Part shown: positions 726 through 15,714 of the stretch, piece after piece
Layout of the letters: each line of letters opens with the position of its first letter
Numbering within the stretch: the first letter of the stretch is position 1
Assembly (NCBI GenBank): GCA_016840035.1
Contig: JAEOTC010000197.1
Coordinates: 1-15,714, forward strand
Direction: 5' to 3'
Origin: Candidatus Hodarchaeota archaeon
Lineage (GTDB): Archaea > Asgardarchaeota > Heimdallarchaeia > Hodarchaeales > Hodarchaeaceae
Length of the DNA stretch: 15,714 bases
The notes under the pieces: model-generated
What the model was told of the DNA's origin: nothing
The model's database searches: none
Seen by the model: only the letters and a program-made list of their open reading frames with translations
Made by a program: the position numbers and the translations under genes

Positions 726-1754
726 TTAAGAGGAAATTTTTATAGTTCTGAAATCATCTGGGTATTTTAATTTTAGATAAATTTGGATTTCAGTTTCATC
801 AATCGTTTCTAAAGCTGTTGCCTCATCGATAGTAGATCGCTGGAGTCTTGTCCAGTTAAGTAAATCTTTGCCAATTTTAAGGCTTTTTCTCATGGAATCT
901 GATTCATCAACAATGAGTATAACTGAAAAATCGGTTTCTTCTACTCGAACTAACTTATAATTTTCATCTAACTCTGAAGCACCAGTTCGTTTCATAAGAA
1001 TCTCTCTGACCCCTGCGCCCAATGAAGCTTGAGCAAAGGTATTCACTGCCGTAAACATACTTGTAAGCATGGAAGGATCATAAGTAACTTCATCTTCTTT
1101 GGCACTTGTACCAACAAGTAAGCCAGATTCAGTCTTATAAATACAAACATTGTGAATGTTGATTTTAGGGAGGATAACTTCACCAGTAAGTGTTTCAATG
1201 AGCCAATCGAACGCTTGATAGAAATTTACACCAGATTTTGCCGATAAATGGAAGATATTGACAGCTCGGAACTGTCCCTTTTGCTGAATTTCATACAAGT
1301 CAAAATGCTGTAATAACAAAACGTAGGGATCTACTCCTGAAAGATCTGCCTTGTTTGCTGCGACTAATAAAATTCCACCAGGTTTAATACTAGGAAGTGC
1401 ATTAAACAACGCTTTTTTGCTTTCCTCAAAGGTTTCAGGTGCTGAACAATCTATTACGAATACAACAGCGGTAGCAATACGCAGATAGTCTTCCCAAATC
1501 ATGTGAAAGGATTCTTGTCCACCTAAATCAAAGGCCTGAAAGTTTACATCCCGATATTCGAAAGAATCTACATTTAAACCCATTGTACGAACTGAATTGC
1601 CGTGAAATTCACCTGTCCGAAGTCTTTGTAATATTGTGGTCTTTCCTGCCATACCGAGACCAATAAATGTAATTAACTTTTCCCCGATTGGTGCTTTCGT
1701 GTCAATATCTTTGACTTTCTCTCTGCGCCGGAATAATCGTTTTAGTAACGACAT
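726..1754 (-). CDS. Arf-family small GTPase with an N-terminal amphipathic helix and a C-terminal longin-like domain
   Basis: G1 GLGMAGKT, switch I TMGLNV (Arf TIGFNV), G3 FDLGGQ followed by IWEDY, AVVFVID, G4 NKAD, G5 SAK, then FYQAFDWL. Residues ~199-305 show a longin-like pattern (IHNVCIYKTESGLLV; DPSMLTSMFTAVNTFAQ; three strands; helix). Confidence 0.9.
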   Translation of the reverse strand: MSLLKRLFRRREKVKDIDTKAPIGEKLITFIGLGMAGKTTILQRLRTGEFHGNSVRTMGLNVDSFEYRDVNFQAFDLGGQESFHMIWEDYLRIATAVVFVIDCSAPETFEESKKALFNALPSIKPGGILLVAANKADLSGVDPYVLLLQHFDLYEIQQKGQFRAVNIFHLSAKSGVNFYQAFDWLIETLTGEVILPKINIHNVCIYKTESGLLVGTSAKEDEVTYDPSMLTSMFTAVNTFAQASLGAGVREILMKRTGASELDENYKLVRVEETDFSVILIVDESDSMRKSLKIGKDLLNWTRLQRSTIDEATALETIDETEIQIYLKLKYPDDFRTIKISS

Positions 1755-3954: not shown

Positions 3955-5100
3955 TTACTTTTCTGATTTATCAAAAAACTTTGTGAGGGCCAATCTTTTG
4001 TCTGTTTGGTCAGATTTTTCAAAATAGGAAGTGTAGTACCTGATATATTCCGTAAAAACTGTTGTATCTTGTCTTAAATTATCGAGAACATCTTGAATAA
4101 TCCTTATCTCATTATACTCCTTCTTAGTAAATGTGAACTTCTTAAGCTTCAGCAGTTCATCGAAAGACGTATCCTTGAATATACTCACATACTTGACTAT
4201 CGTCTGTTCTAAATGAGGAAGTAAATTGACTGGTTGAGGAGTAAAGAAGTGTCCAGTAATTCTTTCGTGAATTACCGTTTTACGGGGAAATTTTTCATAT
4301 CCTATTCCACGGATATTAAGTATTCGTGCGGCTGCAAGTGTACTACCTGTCCCTGCAAAGGGGTCTAGGATATTTGTTGCTCCAGTTAATTTGATACACT
4401 TATACGGAAGTTCGATGGGAAATGGTGCCTCGTGACCTTTTTTAATAGTACTTCCAGTTGTTCGAGTATAAGGAATAAACCAAACGTTTCCAGCATCTCG
4501 AAGATCTGATTGTGCATATCTTCCGATATTTGATTTATCTGCATATGGAATTCCAATCGCCTGGGGATTAATCTGATACTCCTTCCGATCTTTAACAAAG
4601 ATATAAATATACTCAAATATATTATTTAATCTCCTACTTCTACCAGAAGGTGTATAATGACCTCTACCTAGAAATGATTTTAACCAAATTATGGTTTGAA
4701 GGCGAATAAATCCACCTTGTGTTACTAGATCTGCAATCCGTTCTGAAAATCCCTGGTTATTCGCTGAATCACCAACGTTTAAGAAAAACATGCCTTTAGA
4801 GGAAAGAACTCTGTAACATTCTGACCAAACTTTTGAGAGTAAAGTTTCATACTCTTCTTCCGACTGTTGGTCATCATAAACATTTCCTTTGTCGTCCGAA
4901 TATACTTTACTCCTATTGTAGGGAGGGGAGGTCACAATTAAATCAATAGATAAGTCCTTAACCTCAGTCATGTCCTCTGAACTTTTATAGTAAATAACTT
5001 GTTGCCCAAATTTGTCTAAATCACTTTCAGGTTTCATAGGAATGCCAATTTTATTTTGGAAAATGGGATTGAGAGTACCTTTCTCTTCTGAAAAATTCAT
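3955..5100 (-). CDS. Beta-class N4-cytosine/N6-adenine DNA methyltransferase (orphan); start may be the downstream Met (MKPESD)
   Basis: Catalytic motif IV DLIVTSPPY precedes the SAM-binding motif ILDPFAGTGST (beta order). Also IIWLK, FEYIYIF, NVWFI, HEAPFP. Confidence 0.9.
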   Translation of the reverse strand: MNFSEEKGTLNPIFQNKIGIPMKPESDLDKFGQQVIYYKSSEDMTEVKDLSIDLIVTSPPYNRSKVYSDDKGNVYDDQQSEEEYETLLSKVWSECYRVLSSKGMFFLNVGDSANNQGFSERIADLVTQGGFIRLQTIIWLKSFLGRGHYTPSGRSRRLNNIFEYIYIFVKDRKEYQINPQAIGIPYADKSNIGRYAQSDLRDAGNVWFIPYTRTTGSTIKKGHEAPFPIELPYKCIKLTGATNILDPFAGTGSTLAAARILNIRGIGYEKFPRKTVIHERITGHFFTPQPVNLLPHLEQTIVKYVSIFKDTSFDELLKLKKFTFTKKEYNEIRIIQDVLDNLRQDTTVFTEYIRYYTSYFEKSDQTDKRLALTKFFDKSEK

Positions 5101-5316: not shown

Positions 5317-5431
5317 CACGGAAAATACTTCTGTTCTGCATTACGAGAAAAATCTAATTCACATGATCTCCTCCGTCACCCTATATCTTGCTGAATAATT
5401 TTTTTCATGTTTGCATCAGAAAAAGTCCGTG
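5317..5431 (+). ncRNA. Candidate structured 5' leader (long imperfect hairpin) of the SSB mRNA
   Basis: Nested complementary segments: 5317-22/5426-31, 5329-33/5417-21, 5337-40/5412-15, 5345-53/5398-5406 (one G-U), 5357-61/5392-96, 5362-67/5385-90 (one mismatch). Confidence 0.5.
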
Positions 5432-5457
5432 AACCATTTCAAACTATCGTGAGAAAA

Positions 5458-6102
5458 ATGAACGAACATCAAGAATCTCAAGAAAACAAAGAGGAAGAAG
5501 AAACTCAAGAAGCTCAAGAAACCGAGAAATCTGAACCCTCTGAAAAAACTGAAGTATCTGAACCTTCCTCTGAAAGTCCACAGGAGACCGAGGAAACTCT
5601 CAATGTGATGAAAATCAGTGATTTGTCTCCTTTCGAAAGAAAACTTCAAGTCACATTTTGTGTTGTTGAAAAAGGCGAATCTCGAACAATTGTCAGCAAA
5701 AAAACTAATGAAGAACACAATCTTGCCGATTTAAAGGTAGGAGATGAGACAGGGACTATTACTTTGACTCTCTGGGATGAAACCATCGATCGGGTAACTG
5801 AAGGTGGTACTTTTGTCTTAAAGAACGGGTATGTAAATGTATTTCAAAGCCAGATGCGATTAGCGCTAGGTAAATGGGGCTCAATTGAGGATACTGAAGA
5901 AACAATTTCACTTGATGATGTCAATACAGAAAACGACCGATCCAAAGAACAACATGAAGACAGAAGACGACGAAGACGATCATATGATCGCGGTGGCGGT
6001 CAACGCCGATCCTCATATGGCGGTGGAAGATCCTATCGTGGCCGAGATAGTTCTGGCTATCGTGGAAAATCAGATCGTCAAGACCAACAAGAACGTTGGT
6101 AA
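5458..6102 (+). CDS. ssb: Single-stranded DNA-binding protein, single OB fold (crenarchaeal SSB/hSSB1-like), with an acidic N-tail and an Arg/Gly/Ser-rich C-tail
   Basis: KISDLSP...VTFCVVEKGE...VGDETGTITLTLWD...LKNGYVNVFQSQMRLALGKWGSI matches the Sulfolobus-type SSB OB fold. ATG 5458 is preferred over 5407, which lies inside the predicted leader hairpin. Confidence 0.88.
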   Translation: MNEHQESQENKEEEETQEAQETEKSEPSEKTEVSEPSSESPQETEETLNVMKISDLSPFERKLQVTFCVVEKGESRTIVSKKTNEEHNLADLKVGDETGTITLTLWDETIDRVTEGGTFVLKNGYVNVFQSQMRLALGKWGSIEDTEETISLDDVNTENDRSKEQHEDRRRRRRSYDRGGGQRRSSYGGGRSYRGRDSSGYRGKSDRQDQQERW

Positions 6103-9996: not shown

Positions 9997-10887
9997 TCAC
10001 CCATCAAAGACTTTAGCCTTTTTGTTATTCTTCTCTGAAAGGGGATGACCGAGATCGTAGGATTTTCGTAAATGCTCCAAACTTACATGGGTGTACAATT
10101 GAGTTGTTGAGAGTGAGGCGTGTCCAAGTAGTTCTTGGATTACTCGAATGTCAACTGCATTAGCGAGTAAATGAGTGGCAAAAGCATGTCTCAAAGTATG
10201 AGGGGTAAGTTTCTTATCTTGTAAGTTGGCTTGCTCCCGATATTTCTTCACTAAGCGTTGGATAGATCGCGAGGTTAATCTATTCCCAGAACGATTCAAT
10301 ATCAAAGCAGAAGAGGAAGAATCATTACGTCTTTTCTCCAAATACTCCTCTAAGATTGGGATAAGAACATCAGGAAGAGGGATTAACCGATCTTTATTTC
10401 CTTTACCTCCAACGATTCTTAGCATACGACTATCCAGATCTATGCAATCAATGTCTAGGTTACTGAGTTCTGAGACACGCATTCCAGTCCCGTAAAGAAG
10501 AAACAGAATTGTTCGGTCTCGTAAATTATCAGGAGTCTTTAAAAGATGTAATGTTTCCTCTACAGAAATTGTTTTAGGAAGACTCTTTGGAATTTTGGGT
10601 GATTCTATATTTTCGGCTGGATTAGCAGATATATATGCTTCTTTTTTCAGAAATTTGTAGAATGACTTTAATGAGCAAATTTTTCTGTGTAAACTCCGTG
10701 GGGAGTATTGTTTATTTCGTTTTAGGTGTAAAAAGAATCGACGTAAATCGGTTGTGGTTCTCAATTCTATAGATCGTTCATTATTAAAATTATTGAACAT
10801 TTGAAGGTCATAAGCGTATTCTCGAATTGTCTTCGGTGAATATCCCTTTTCTACTTCGAGCCAGACCAAGTAATCTTGAATTAGCAT
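9997..10887 (-). CDS. xerA: Tyrosine recombinase XerA/XerC-XerD type
   Basis: N-terminal SAM-like domain (EKGYSPKTIREYAYDL; RKICSLKSFYKFL) and catalytic R-K-H-R-H-Y residues: GMRVSEL, GKGNKDR, TPHTLRHAFATHLL, IQELLGHASLSTTQLYTHV. Confidence 0.92.
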   Translation of the reverse strand: MLIQDYLVWLEVEKGYSPKTIREYAYDLQMFNNFNNERSIELRTTTDLRRFFLHLKRNKQYSPRSLHRKICSLKSFYKFLKKEAYISANPAENIESPKIPKSLPKTISVEETLHLLKTPDNLRDRTILFLLYGTGMRVSELSNLDIDCIDLDSRMLRIVGGKGNKDRLIPLPDVLIPILEEYLEKRRNDSSSSALILNRSGNRLTSRSIQRLVKKYREQANLQDKKLTPHTLRHAFATHLLANAVDIRVIQELLGHASLSTTQLYTHVSLEHLRKSYDLGHPLSEKNNKKAKVFDG

Positions 10888-13820: not shown

Positions 13821-14774
13821 TTGACGGAAATACCAATAAGTGAGCTTTCTACCCTCAAATCGAAGAAAGACAAAATCATTCATCTGAAGTCAGAATCTCT
13901 TCGCGGATCCGATTTACTTATCATTCTTTCTGATGAGGGAGGGTTACCTGTTTATACGAAGTTCGTTCAAGTGAATGAATATGGTGATGTCACGTACAAG
14001 GATACTCCATCTACACGAGCTAGTAACGAAAACATTGTATTAGTTTCTGGTTTACTTGAAGCCATTATTCAACTTAAAGACATAATCAGACCAACCCTCA
14101 CAGAGCTAACTAGTAAACCAAATACCCCGATTTATGTCGACTATGCAAAAGCAGAGAATGGAATAAGCCTACTGTCAATGTCGACGACTCCAGAATTTCA
14201 GCAACTACCAGGCCACTTATTGAGTCAGTATGTACCTTTTCAATCTGGTACTAATTTCTCTGTTTCGGATTCTTGGGAAGAAAATTTTGAAGAAGCGATA
14301 GAGAGTCCATTAGGTGAGGATGCAGCTATTTACAAGCATATCCTCGGTAAAATCAAATTAGATTTAGCTGATTTTATATCTTTCATTCTGGTTTATGACT
14401 CCGAAGGTAATTATCTATTTTCTACAGCAAAGCAGCAGGAATTAAAGGGAGTAACAGACCCATTATTGAATTCAATCTCTCAATACATAAAGAGAGAATA
14501 TTTATTGCAGAAATATCGGGAAAATCTCACATTAATCGGAGCAAAACGACTCCATGATTCAGTGATTTGGCATTTCAAGTGTTTTGATAAGATTTTTGTG
14601 TTTTTTACATATCTTATTCCTGATCTTTATGATTTTGATACCCTAAAAACTGAAATGATCACTTTCATCACAAATAACTTAGAAAAGTTCATTAAAGCGA
14701 CTAAATTATACTCTTCACCCCCTGGATCCATTTCTAGTAATATTAAGACGACTCGTTTTACATTTTTGTCTTAA
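13821..14774 (+). CDS. Putative tandem longin/roadblock-like domain protein
   Basis: Two repeats of hydrophobic strand-turn-G-strand then helix: LLIILSDEGGLPVYTK...LVSGLLEAIIQL and FILVYDSEGNYLFST...PLLNSISQYI. Each is followed by beta strands and a helix. Confidence 0.55.
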   Translation: MTEIPISELSTLKSKKDKIIHLKSESLRGSDLLIILSDEGGLPVYTKFVQVNEYGDVTYKDTPSTRASNENIVLVSGLLEAIIQLKDIIRPTLTELTSKPNTPIYVDYAKAENGISLLSMSTTPEFQQLPGHLLSQYVPFQSGTNFSVSDSWEENFEEAIESPLGEDAAIYKHILGKIKLDLADFISFILVYDSEGNYLFSTAKQQELKGVTDPLLNSISQYIKREYLLQKYRENLTLIGAKRLHDSVIWHFKCFDKIFVFFTYLIPDLYDFDTLKTEMITFITNNLEKFIKATKLYSSPPGSISSNIKTTRFTFLS

Positions 14775-14875: not shown

Positions 14876-15670
14876 ATGTCAAGTGAAAGATTAGATGATC
14901 CCAAAGTAGAATTTGCTAAGTCAGGACGCTCAACATGTCGTGGTTGCCATGAAAAAATCCCTAAGGATATACCTCGGATTGGAATTCCGTCCCCATTTAC
15001 AACACCCAAAGGAGAGGTGATCACCTCTTATCGATATTATCACGTAAAATGTACCCCACGTAATGAAGTTCCAAGTGTAGTTAATTATTTAACCACCAAT
15101 ACTCTTGATTCTTCAGATTTACAACAAGATACTTTAGCCATCCTGAATGAAATGTTGAAAGGAAAGTCATCAGAGGGGTCTTCGTCTGAACAACCCATTC
15201 AGAATCCCTTTCTGGAGTATGCAAAAAGTTCGCGTGGTAAATGCCAAGAATGCGAGGAAAAAATTGAGAAGGGAACAATTCGTGCTGCTCAACCTACAAT
15301 AATTGAATTAGATGATGGTAGGAAATTTGTGTCACAAAAATATGCACATATCGATTGTTTCCTTAACAAAGCTAGAGATCCCAAAGATATGCTAGAAAAA
15401 CTCTTTAAAATATCCCTCGAAAAGAAGACGATTTCTGAAGATGAGGAAGATCAAATACGTGTGAATTTTAGTGATCTAGATCAAAAATCTACTGGAGTAG
15501 ATGATATCATTGCCACTATTGGAAATGAACCAGTTGAGATAACGCAATTACGTGACCTATCAAAAGAACAAGGTGTAGATTATAAAATAGTCCAAAAAGC
15601 TATTGATAGAGGTTTAATGAGAGGGGAGTATTTTATGCCTACACCTGATACGGTGCAAAAATTGGATTAA
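14876..15670 (+). CDS. Tandem PARP-type zinc finger (2x zf-PARP) protein with a C-terminal winged helix; no catalytic domain
   Basis: VEFAKSGRSTCRGC...RIG...YYHVKC (C21,C24,H56,C59) and LEYAKSSRGKCQEC...IR...YAHIDCF (C123,C126,H158,C161). C-terminal VEITQLRDLSKEQGVDYKIVQKAIDRGLMRGEYFMPTPDTVQKL. Confidence 0.88.
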   Translation: MSSERLDDPKVEFAKSGRSTCRGCHEKIPKDIPRIGIPSPFTTPKGEVITSYRYYHVKCTPRNEVPSVVNYLTTNTLDSSDLQQDTLAILNEMLKGKSSEGSSSEQPIQNPFLEYAKSSRGKCQECEEKIEKGTIRAAQPTIIELDDGRKFVSQKYAHIDCFLNKARDPKDMLEKLFKISLEKKTISEDEEDQIRVNFSDLDQKSTGVDDIIATIGNEPVEITQLRDLSKEQGVDYKIVQKAIDRGLMRGEYFMPTPDTVQKLD

Positions 15671-15714
15671 TGAGTGGATGTAAATTCTTATCAGTCTATA
15701 AAACTGACATTCGG

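What the first reader, a model, noticed from the sequence alone, without database searches (positions are those of the whole stretch)
15494..15670. Winged-helix adaptor replaces the PARP catalytic module: a possible ADP-ribosylation-free break-signalling system
Seen: no Zn3, BRCT, WGR or ART domain follows the fingers. There is only a ~58-aa tail with the pattern helix-PV.I..L......GV....V..AI......GEYF.P.P..V..L. Known: this resembles the C-terminal wHTH of archaeal MCM and RPA32-like subunits, which act as protein-recruitment modules in replication and repair. Inference: the protein may detect strand breaks and recruit or compete for replisome/repair partners (ligase, primase, Cdc6/Orc1) through the wHTH. 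I do not recognise this architecture from characterised proteins.
Basis: inference. Interest (0 to 1): 0.8.

Follow-up and report, generated by a model that had tools for sequence, protein, structure and literature searches.

The report
PARP-type fingers with MCM-type winged-helix tail
An Asgard (Hodarchaeales) archaeon encodes a small enzyme-free protein with two PARP1-type DNA-break-sensing zinc fingers and a tail that copies the winged-helix end of its own replicative helicase MCM, so it probably links nicks or gaps to the replication machinery, though no partner is known yet.

Summary
Gene 14876..15670 (+) encodes 264 aa: two zf-PARP fingers and nothing enzymatic. Residues 207-264 (15494..15667) form a conserved, confidently predicted winged helix (WH).

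- The tail profile finds the C-terminus of this genome's own MCM (E 1e-7).
- BLASTP gives a gapless 63-aa match (E 7e-7).
- hhalign against an MCM-WH alignment gives 97.5% probability (E 6e-12).
- The four best ESM-Atlas fold matches are MCM WH clusters.

No PARP catalytic or WGR domain was found in this genome. No PARP catalytic domain reached the Pfam cut-off in 400 Asgard genomes.

The finger-finger-WH layout is confined to one Hodarchaeales genus (19 of 21 genomes). One relative carries a copy of the SSB OB fold between the fingers, which ties the family to gapped or single-stranded DNA.

"Replaces the PARP catalytic module" is not shown. Archaea have no PARP to replace, and Asgard fingers occur with several other partner regions. 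The adaptor function is inferred, and no partner was identified.

The fingers' presence in Heimdall- and Thorarchaeia is published (Eme 2023, supplement). I found no paper describing the WH tail. This scan has reached the same reading before on orthologues in other genomes.

The parts
14876..15670 (+). Complete gene, 264 aa: Zn1 - linker - Zn2 - winged helix, including the stop codon
   Evidence: ORF list and translation. Two zf-PARP matches. Full-length orthologues in 19 of 21 same-genus genomes.
14900..15163 (+). PARP-type zinc finger 1 (aa 9-96). Ligands C21, C24, H56, C59; followed by a helical subdomain
   Evidence: PF00645. Aligns to PARP1 F1. Ligands invariant or nearly so. Whole-model Foldseek best hits are PARP-1 F1F2 on DNA, 2n8a at E 2e-10 and 9mi8.
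15164..15202 (+). Flexible inter-finger linker (aa 97-109). A relative carries an SSB-type OB fold at this site
   Evidence: pLDDT below 50 for residues 97-108. Mean pairwise identity 0.15. OB insertion in P0020 and G064.
15203..15475 (+). PARP-type zinc finger 2 (aa 110-200). Ligands C123, C126, H158, C161; followed by a helical subdomain
   Evidence: PF00645 best stretch 114-168. Aligns to PARP1 F2 and to the ligase III finger. Ligands invariant.
15494..15667 (+). C-terminal MCM-type winged helix (aa 207-264): H1 207-212, short strand 220-221, H2 222-232, H3 236-249, beta hairpin 252-262 with the motif G-x-Y-F-x-P...Q-K-L
   Evidence: AF2 model. VIA-align Z 8.0 to P. abyssi Rpa2 WH, 7.5 and 7.4 to Sso and Mth MCM WH. 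Profile hit on the genome's own MCM C-terminus, E 1.1e-7. BLASTP E 7e-7. hhalign 97.5%, E 6e-12. Top four Atlas matches are MCM WH clusters, TM 0.74-0.78.

Best explanation
The gene encodes a non-catalytic sensor-adaptor for DNA discontinuities. The two PARP-type fingers bind nicks, gaps or ends, as PARP1 F1-F2 does. This is inferred from homology and from conserved zinc ligands, arginines and the stacking-loop phenylalanine. [quoted passage not shown] I infer that this WH is a protein-docking module. It would engage whatever the MCM WH engages: in Sulfolobus that is origin-bound Orc1-1, and alternatively it could be the MCM AAA+ tier or another replisome factor. The effect would be to couple, or competitively uncouple, damaged or gapped DNA and the helicase-loading or replication machinery, without ADP-ribose signalling. 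The domain identities are near certain. The docking role is moderately likely. The identity of the partner is open.
For: Fingers:
- PF00645 twice, 85.4 bits.
- In-register alignment to PARP1 F1-F2, E 1e-19.
- Foldseek best hits are PARP-1 F1F2 on a DNA break and PARP1 on nicked DNA.

Tail is an MCM-type WH:
- Evidence: - Like the MCM WH, it sits at the extreme C-terminus and ends in the same wing motif.

Tail is constrained:
- Mean identity 0.46, against 0.15-0.20 for the linkers.

Charge:
- The tail is not consistently basic: mean net charge -1.1.
- The MCM WHs are -3 to -5.
- This fits a protein-binding surface.

Known roles of the closest WHs are protein docking or regulation:
- The MCM WH interacts with ORB-bound Orc1-1 (PMC12141716).
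- The MCM WH modulates the MCM ATPase (PMC4357721).
- The Rpa2 WH binds primase and PolD (PMC11686378).

Link to gapped or single-stranded DNA:
- A same-genus orthologue (G064 / P0020) has an OB fold inserted between the fingers.
- That OB is 58% identical to the SSB encoded in this window, and the orthologue keeps the WH.

No enzyme:
- No PARP catalytic or WGR domain in the genome.
- No PARP catalytic domain over the cut-off in 400 Asgard genomes.
- The only longer relatives found are eukaryotic PARP1s.
Against: - No partner is identified, and nothing here measures binding.
- Gene order (Dph2 - 317-aa unknown - this gene - convergent GDSL hydrolase) is conserved only within one genus and names no replication or repair partner.
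- Some orthologues have a net positive WH of +2 or +3.
- Nucleic-acid-binding WHs (Z-alpha, SelB, MarR, DprA) score about as well as MCM and Rpa2 in the PDB fold searches, so DNA binding by the WH is not excluded.
- One documented role of the archaeal MCM WH is allosteric control within MCM itself, which would not transfer to this protein.
- DNA-break binding by these fingers is untested.
Confidence: 0.55

Rival explanations
1. The WH is a third DNA-binding module. The protein would act alone as a cap or protector of breaks or gaps, like the isolated PARP1 DNA-binding fragment, and recruit nobody.
For: Winged helices are commonly DNA binders. Foldseek and VIA-align list Z-alpha, SelB, MarR/Fur and DprA WHs at scores close to those of MCM and Rpa2. 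Several orthologues have neutral or positive WHs. A relative adds an ssDNA-binding OB fold, so the family tends to gather DNA-binding modules.
Against: By sequence the tail is an MCM-type WH, a class described as truncated and regulatory or docking (PMC4357721, PMC12141716). Its mean net charge is slightly negative, and this window's copy is -4.
Confidence: 0.25
2. The protein is a DNA-damage-responsive or other transcription regulator. Fingers plus WH would recognise promoter DNA or a DNA structure.
For: Zinc finger plus winged helix is a common make-up for archaeal regulators. MarR, PadR and Fur-type WHs appear among the fold matches.
Against: zf-PARP fingers are known as structure-specific break sensors, not sequence readers. 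The WH matches MCM rather than any regulator family by sequence. No Pfam HTH family matches.
Confidence: 0.08
3. The WH acts within the protein or between copies of it, by auto-inhibiting the fingers or by oligomerising, with no external partner.
For: In MCM the WH acts in cis on the ATPase tier (PMC4357721). The whole-protein model has pTM of only 0.53, so the domain arrangement is undetermined.
Against: A weakly conserved, low-confidence stretch (aa 201-207; identity 0.20, and pLDDT dips to about 71 over aa 201-210) separates the WH from finger 2. Nothing in the data indicates a fixed contact.
Confidence: 0.07

Closest known systems
Human PARP1 N-terminal fingers F1-F2 (Zn1-Zn2; PDB 2n8a, 4av1, 9mi8)
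   Same: Two tandem zf-PARP fingers in the same order. CCHC ligands, the AKSxR motif, the backbone-gripping arginines and the stacking-loop phenylalanine are conserved.
   Different: No Zn3/PADR1, BRCT, WGR, helical or ART domain follows. The output module is a 58-aa winged helix. No PARP enzyme was found in the genome or phylum.
C-terminal winged helix of archaeal MCM (Sso 2m45, Mth 2ma3; Pfam MCM_WH_arc / MCM_C)
   Same: Same fold: Z 7.5 and 7.4, Atlas TM 0.74-0.78. Profile-level homology to the lineage's own MCM WH (E 6e-12). Same extreme C-terminal position and same G-x-(Y/L)-F-x-P...QK(L/I) ending.
   Different: It is attached to DNA-break-sensing fingers, not to an AAA+ lid. Identity to the genome's own MCM WH is only 27%. 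The Pfam MCM WH models detect neither the tail nor this genome's own MCM WH.
Rpa2/RPA32 C-terminal winged helix (P. abyssi 9f27/9f2a; human 1dpu, 4mqv)
   Same: Best VIA-align match (Z 8.0; Foldseek TMq 0.68 to 9f2a). It is a small acidic C-terminal WH that recruits primase, PolD or repair factors (PMC11686378). The OB-bearing relative (OB, then finger 2, then WH) recalls the OB-then-WH order of Rpa2.
   Different: No sequence-level match: RPA_C (PF08784) does not hit this gene. The Z scores tie with those of MCM and other WHs.
Other zf-PARP fusion proteins (DNA ligase III finger, 1uw0)
   Same: A PARP-type finger serves as a nick sensor attached to a different output module.
   Different: In ligase III the output is an enzyme. 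Here no catalytic domain is present.

Membership tests
zf-PARP (PF00645) DNA-break-sensing zinc finger | Pfam score above the gathering cut-off, two copies | tested here: met
   85.4 bits against 39.3, two stretches. All 16 homologues match.
zf-PARP (PF00645) DNA-break-sensing zinc finger | CCHC zinc ligands conserved in both fingers | tested here: met
   C21, C24, H56, C59 and C123, C126, H158, C161 are invariant or nearly so.
zf-PARP (PF00645) DNA-break-sensing zinc finger | Preferential binding to nicked or broken DNA | not testable with these tools
   Needs EMSA or anisotropy with defined substrates.
PARP enzyme family | ART catalytic domain (PF00644), with WGR | tested here: not met
   Absent from the protein. 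Neither domain was found in the 87%-complete genome. The catalytic domain was not found over the cut-off in 400 Asgard genomes. The PF00644 search had no positive control.
MCM C-terminal winged helix | Winged-helix fold resembling solved MCM WH domains | tested here: met
   Z 7.5 (2m45) and 7.4 (2ma3). Atlas top four rows are MCM WH clusters, TM 0.74-0.78 over all 69 residues.
MCM C-terminal winged helix | Sequence homology to MCM WH | tested here: met
   Tail profile against the genome's own MCM C-terminus, E 1.1e-7. BLASTP E 7e-7. hhalign probability 97.5%, E 6e-12. MCM C-termini of other same-genus genomes are also hit.
MCM C-terminal winged helix | Match to Pfam MCM_WH_arc (PF21120) or MCM_C (PF21100) over the cut-off | tested here: not met
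   No hit on the tail at E up to 1. The same models also miss this genome's own MCM WH, so this failure says little.
MCM C-terminal winged helix | Attached to the MCM AAA+ lid | tested here: not met
   The tail follows zf-PARP finger 2. It is a paralogous copy, not part of an MCM.
Rpa2/RPA32 C-terminal WH (PF08784) | Sequence match to RPA_C | tested here: not met
   No match on this gene.
Rpa2/RPA32 C-terminal WH (PF08784) | Fold similarity | tested here: inconclusive
   Z 8.0 to 9f27 and 7.3 to 4mqv, tied with MCM, DprA and Z-alpha WHs.
Z-alpha (Z-DNA-binding WH) | Fold similarity plus the Z-DNA contact residues | tested here: inconclusive
   Foldseek E 0.02-0.05 and Z 7.6 to ZBP1. Contact residues were compared only by eye against a motif recalled from memory and do not appear conserved. 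No formal test was run.

The most novel reading that the evidence does not exclude
The WH tail mimics the MCM tail to engage an Orc1/Cdc6-type loader (or MCM itself) at DNA nicks and gaps. That would give Hodarchaeales an ADP-ribose-free way to start, or to forbid, helicase loading at damaged DNA. It would be a pre-eukaryotic link between the PARP1-type break sensor and replication licensing.
Probability: 0.15. Interest if true: 0.8.

Novelty: new variant of a known kind. Interest (0 to 1): 0.55.

Why it matters
PARP1's finger pair is the standard eukaryotic DNA-break sensor. Its archaeal relatives have received only a few sentences in a paper supplement.

This work shows that in Hodarchaeales, close relatives of eukaryotes, the sensor is wired to a copy of the replicative helicase's own docking tail rather than to an enzyme. 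A sister species also adds an SSB OB fold.

That gives a concrete, testable hypothesis for how break sensing was coupled to replication before poly(ADP-ribose) signalling existed. It also gives biochemists a small, tractable protein with which to study PARP-type fingers without the catalytic machinery.

Tried and rejected
**Complex prediction.** I ran complex prediction with the WH tail (alignment A2), the Orc1/Cdc6 encoded next to GINS-MCM (alignment A4) and ATP. The result was no verdict (score 0.00, mark 0.32). This is evidence neither for nor against binding.

**Sequence searches on the tail.**
- Pfam on the tail alone gave nothing meaningful.
- phmmer of residues 170-264 against PDB sequences gave no hit.
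- PF26927, listed for two homologues, is a faint Phage_SPbeta_YorH hit between the fingers and is irrelevant.
- In the tail-profile search, hits P0027-P0031, P0034, P0036, P0038, P0039 and P0041 match only about 26-aa repeat stretches. Of the four I scanned with Pfam, two carry TIR/NB-ARC and one CATRA, so I treated them all as unrelated.
- P0022 and P0026 look like fragments of full-length family members.

**The 'second copy'.** The match on contig C260 is only the overlapping end of the adjoining contig.

**Literature.** Searches for archaeal or Asgard zf-PARP proteins found only two things:
- Perina 2014: no archaeal PARPs are known.
- A short paragraph in the supplement of Eme 2023 on zf-PARP in Heimdall- and Thorarchaeia.

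I found nothing on the WH tail.

**Inter-finger insert in another family.** The insert in another Heimdall-class family's two-finger protein (L034) looked OB-like by eye. It shows no BLASTP similarity to the SSB or to the P0020 OB, and has no Pfam OB hit, so I do not call it an OB.

Full report
**The gene and the observation.** The finding's coordinates (15494..15670) are the last 58 codons plus the stop of a complete 264-aa ORF, 14876..15670 on the + strand.
- Pfam recognises two zf-PARP fingers (PF00645, 85.4 bits against a cut-off of 39.3) and nothing else of significance.
- The fingers align in register with PARP1 F1-F2 (E 1e-19).
- The best Foldseek matches of the whole AlphaFold model are PARP-1 F1F2 on a DNA break (2n8a, E 2e-10) and PARP1 on nicked DNA (9mi8).
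- No Zn3/PADR1, BRCT, WGR or ART follows the fingers.
- The protein is not truncated by the contig end. The last 127 bases of the window are identical to the end of contig C260, where the next gene is a convergent GDSL-type hydrolase. Same-genus genomes show the same arrangement.

**The host.** The genome is an Asgard archaeon.
- One close homologue is labelled Candidatus Hodarchaeales.
- The window carries an Arf-family GTPase and a Dph2 diphthamide-synthesis gene.
- Eme et al. report dph genes in all Hodarchaeales but in no other Heimdallarchaeia (PMC10307638 supplement).

**Is the tail real and conserved?** Sixteen full-length homologues (46-64% identity) keep the tail, with I215, G250, F253, P255, Q261 and L263 invariant. 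Mean pairwise identity among 18 same-genus orthologues:

| Region | Mean pairwise identity |
|---|---|
| Winged helix | 0.46 |
| Zinc-binding cores | 0.58-0.59 |
| Helical halves of the fingers | 0.25-0.29 |
| Linkers | 0.15-0.20 |

The tail is therefore a constrained domain and not a spacer. AlphaFold2 on the tail alone (alignment A2) gives pLDDT above 90 over about 58 residues. The topology is helix, short strand, helix, helix, beta hairpin, which is a winged helix.

**What kind of winged helix?**

*PDB fold searches.* These confirm the fold but do not discriminate well.
- VIA-align ranks P. abyssi Rpa2 WH first (Z 8.0).
- Next come DprA (7.7), ZBP1 Z-alpha (7.6), Sulfolobus and Methanothermobacter MCM WH (7.5 and 7.4), and RPA32C (7.3).
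- Foldseek E-values are only 0.02-0.1.

*Sequence comparison.* This settles the question.
- A profile of the tail, searched against the whole genome, finds only itself, the overlapping contig end, and the extreme C-terminus of a 1149-aa ORF (E 1.1e-7).
- That ORF is the genome's intein-containing MCM, which sits in an Orc1/Cdc6 - GINS - MCM - Hel308-like cluster.
- BLASTP aligns tail and MCM C-terminus without gaps over 63 residues (27% identity, E 7e-7). Both end in ...VQK(L/I).
- hhalign of the tail alignment against an alignment of nine MCM C-termini gives 97.5% probability and E 6e-12.
- The phylum-wide search hits MCM C-termini of other same-genus genomes with the tail portion of the profile.
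- The ESM-Atlas fold search puts four MCM WH clusters first (TM 0.74-0.78 over all 69 residues), ahead of DprA.
- In a search of 1.8 billion representatives, the tail profile found outside its own family a PDDEXK nuclease with three tandem WHs that weakly match the Pfam MCM WH models. It also found short proteins (P0033, P0040) that align with the MCM C-termini.
- The Pfam MCM WH models detect neither the tail nor this genome's own MCM WH, so that negative result says little.
- RPA_C (PF08784) does not match.

The RPA32 resemblance is structural only.

**Distribution and architecture.**
- The Zn-Zn-WH layout occurs in 19 of 21 genomes of the same genus. It was not seen elsewhere among 400 Asgard genomes.
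- zf-PARP fingers themselves occur in 99 of those 400 genomes, with other partner regions:
  - a single C-terminal finger behind an unassigned N-terminal region of about 160 aa;
  - a finger followed by a region with a weak HROB-OB hit;
  - two fingers separated by an unassigned insert of about 125 aa.
- One same-genus genome (G064; also metagenomic P0020) has finger - OB - finger - WH. Its OB is 58% identical to the SSB encoded in this very window (5407..6102). G064 also keeps a stand-alone SSB.
- That fusion is the best contextual clue to function. It places the fingers and the WH at DNA that has a single-stranded part.
- Longer relatives found by sequence are only eukaryotic PARP1s.

**ADP-ribosylation.**
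- No PARP catalytic or WGR domain was found in this 87%-complete genome.
- No PARP catalytic domain over the Pfam cut-off was found in 400 Asgard genomes, including same-genus genomes up to 99% complete.
- That search had no positive control.
- The result agrees with Perina et al. 2014, who found no PARP in any archaeal genome (PMC4245714).
- One macrodomain gene exists, as in many archaea.
- Other ADP-ribosyltransferase families were not searched.
- The wording 'replaces the catalytic module' is therefore misleading. There is no sign that this lineage ever had one.

**Mechanism.**
- Shown: the domain identities, their conservation and the absence of an enzyme.
- Inferred: the fingers bind nicks, gaps or ends as in PARP1, and the WH is a docking module.

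Support for docking:
- The closest WHs work that way. The Sulfolobus MCM WH contacts origin-bound Orc1-1 (PMC12141716) and modulates the MCM ATPase (PMC4357721). The Rpa2 WH binds primase and PolD (PMC11686378).
- The tail is on average slightly acidic (-1.1; this copy -4), like the MCM WHs (-3 to -5).

Against docking:
- Some orthologues have positive tails.
- DNA-binding WHs score similarly in the PDB fold searches.
- Synteny points to no partner.

I put the sensor-adaptor reading at about 0.55. The rivals are a DNA-binding capping protein at 0.25, a transcription regulator at 0.08 and a cis or oligomerisation role at 0.07.

**What is known already.**
- The supplement of Eme et al. 2023 states in a few sentences that zf-PARP homologues occur only in Heimdall- and Thorarchaeia among Asgard archaea. 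It says nothing about the tail or the architecture.
- No other paper in the searchable library addresses these proteins.
- Earlier follow-ups in this scan reached the same 'PARP-type fingers with MCM tail' reading on orthologues in other genomes. I reached it independently here.
- The note that the fingers were already published led me to look for, and find, the Eme supplement.

**Verdict.**
- This is a new domain architecture built from two known modules, in a lineage of evolutionary interest, with a testable but still unproven mechanism.

Noticed in passing
window 5407..6102 (+): SSB-type OB protein (231 aa) with a glutamate-rich N-terminal low-complexity region and an arginine/glycine-rich C-terminal tail. 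Its OB fold is 58% identical to the OB inserted between the fingers of the zf-PARP orthologue in genome G064 / P0020.
   Followed up: partly
window 15588..15714 and contig C260 end (L005 about 1454..1580): The last 127 bases of this contig are identical to the reverse complement of the end of contig C260, so the two contigs join. The downstream neighbour is a convergent GDSL-type hydrolase.
   Followed up: yes
L010:2188-4317 (G000 contig C244): A UvrD-like superfamily-1 helicase (709 aa) ends in an MCM_WH_arc-type winged helix (32.1 bits, over the cut-off). MCM-type WHs therefore tail several DNA enzymes in this genome.
   Followed up: partly
L009:2864-10786 (G000 contig C25): Replication cluster: Orc1/Cdc6, a GINS-like protein, MCM interrupted by a LAGLIDADG intein (1149 aa), then a Hel308-type helicase. 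The genome has five Orc1/Cdc6 paralogues.
   Followed up: partly
P0025 (metagenomic protein, 368 aa): A PDDEXK/NucS_C-type nuclease domain followed by three tandem winged helices that weakly match the MCM WH models. This is another enzyme carrying this kind of WH.
   Followed up: no
L035:910-1605, L036:955-1695, L039:1375-2052, L040:528-1220 (other Asgard families): Proteins of about 230 aa with an unassigned N-terminal region of about 160 aa and a single C-terminal zf-PARP finger. They are widespread in two other Asgard families. The N-terminal region has no Pfam match.
   Followed up: no
window 13821..14774 (+): A 317-aa protein with no Pfam family lies directly upstream on the same strand. 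It is kept in that position in 17 of 20 same-genus loci, and is better conserved (46-86% identity) than the zf-PARP gene (31-64%).
   Followed up: partly
window 3955..5100 (-) and 9997..10887 (-): An N6/N4 DNA methylase and a tyrosine recombinase (phage-integrase family, XerC/D-like) lie in the same window.
   Followed up: no
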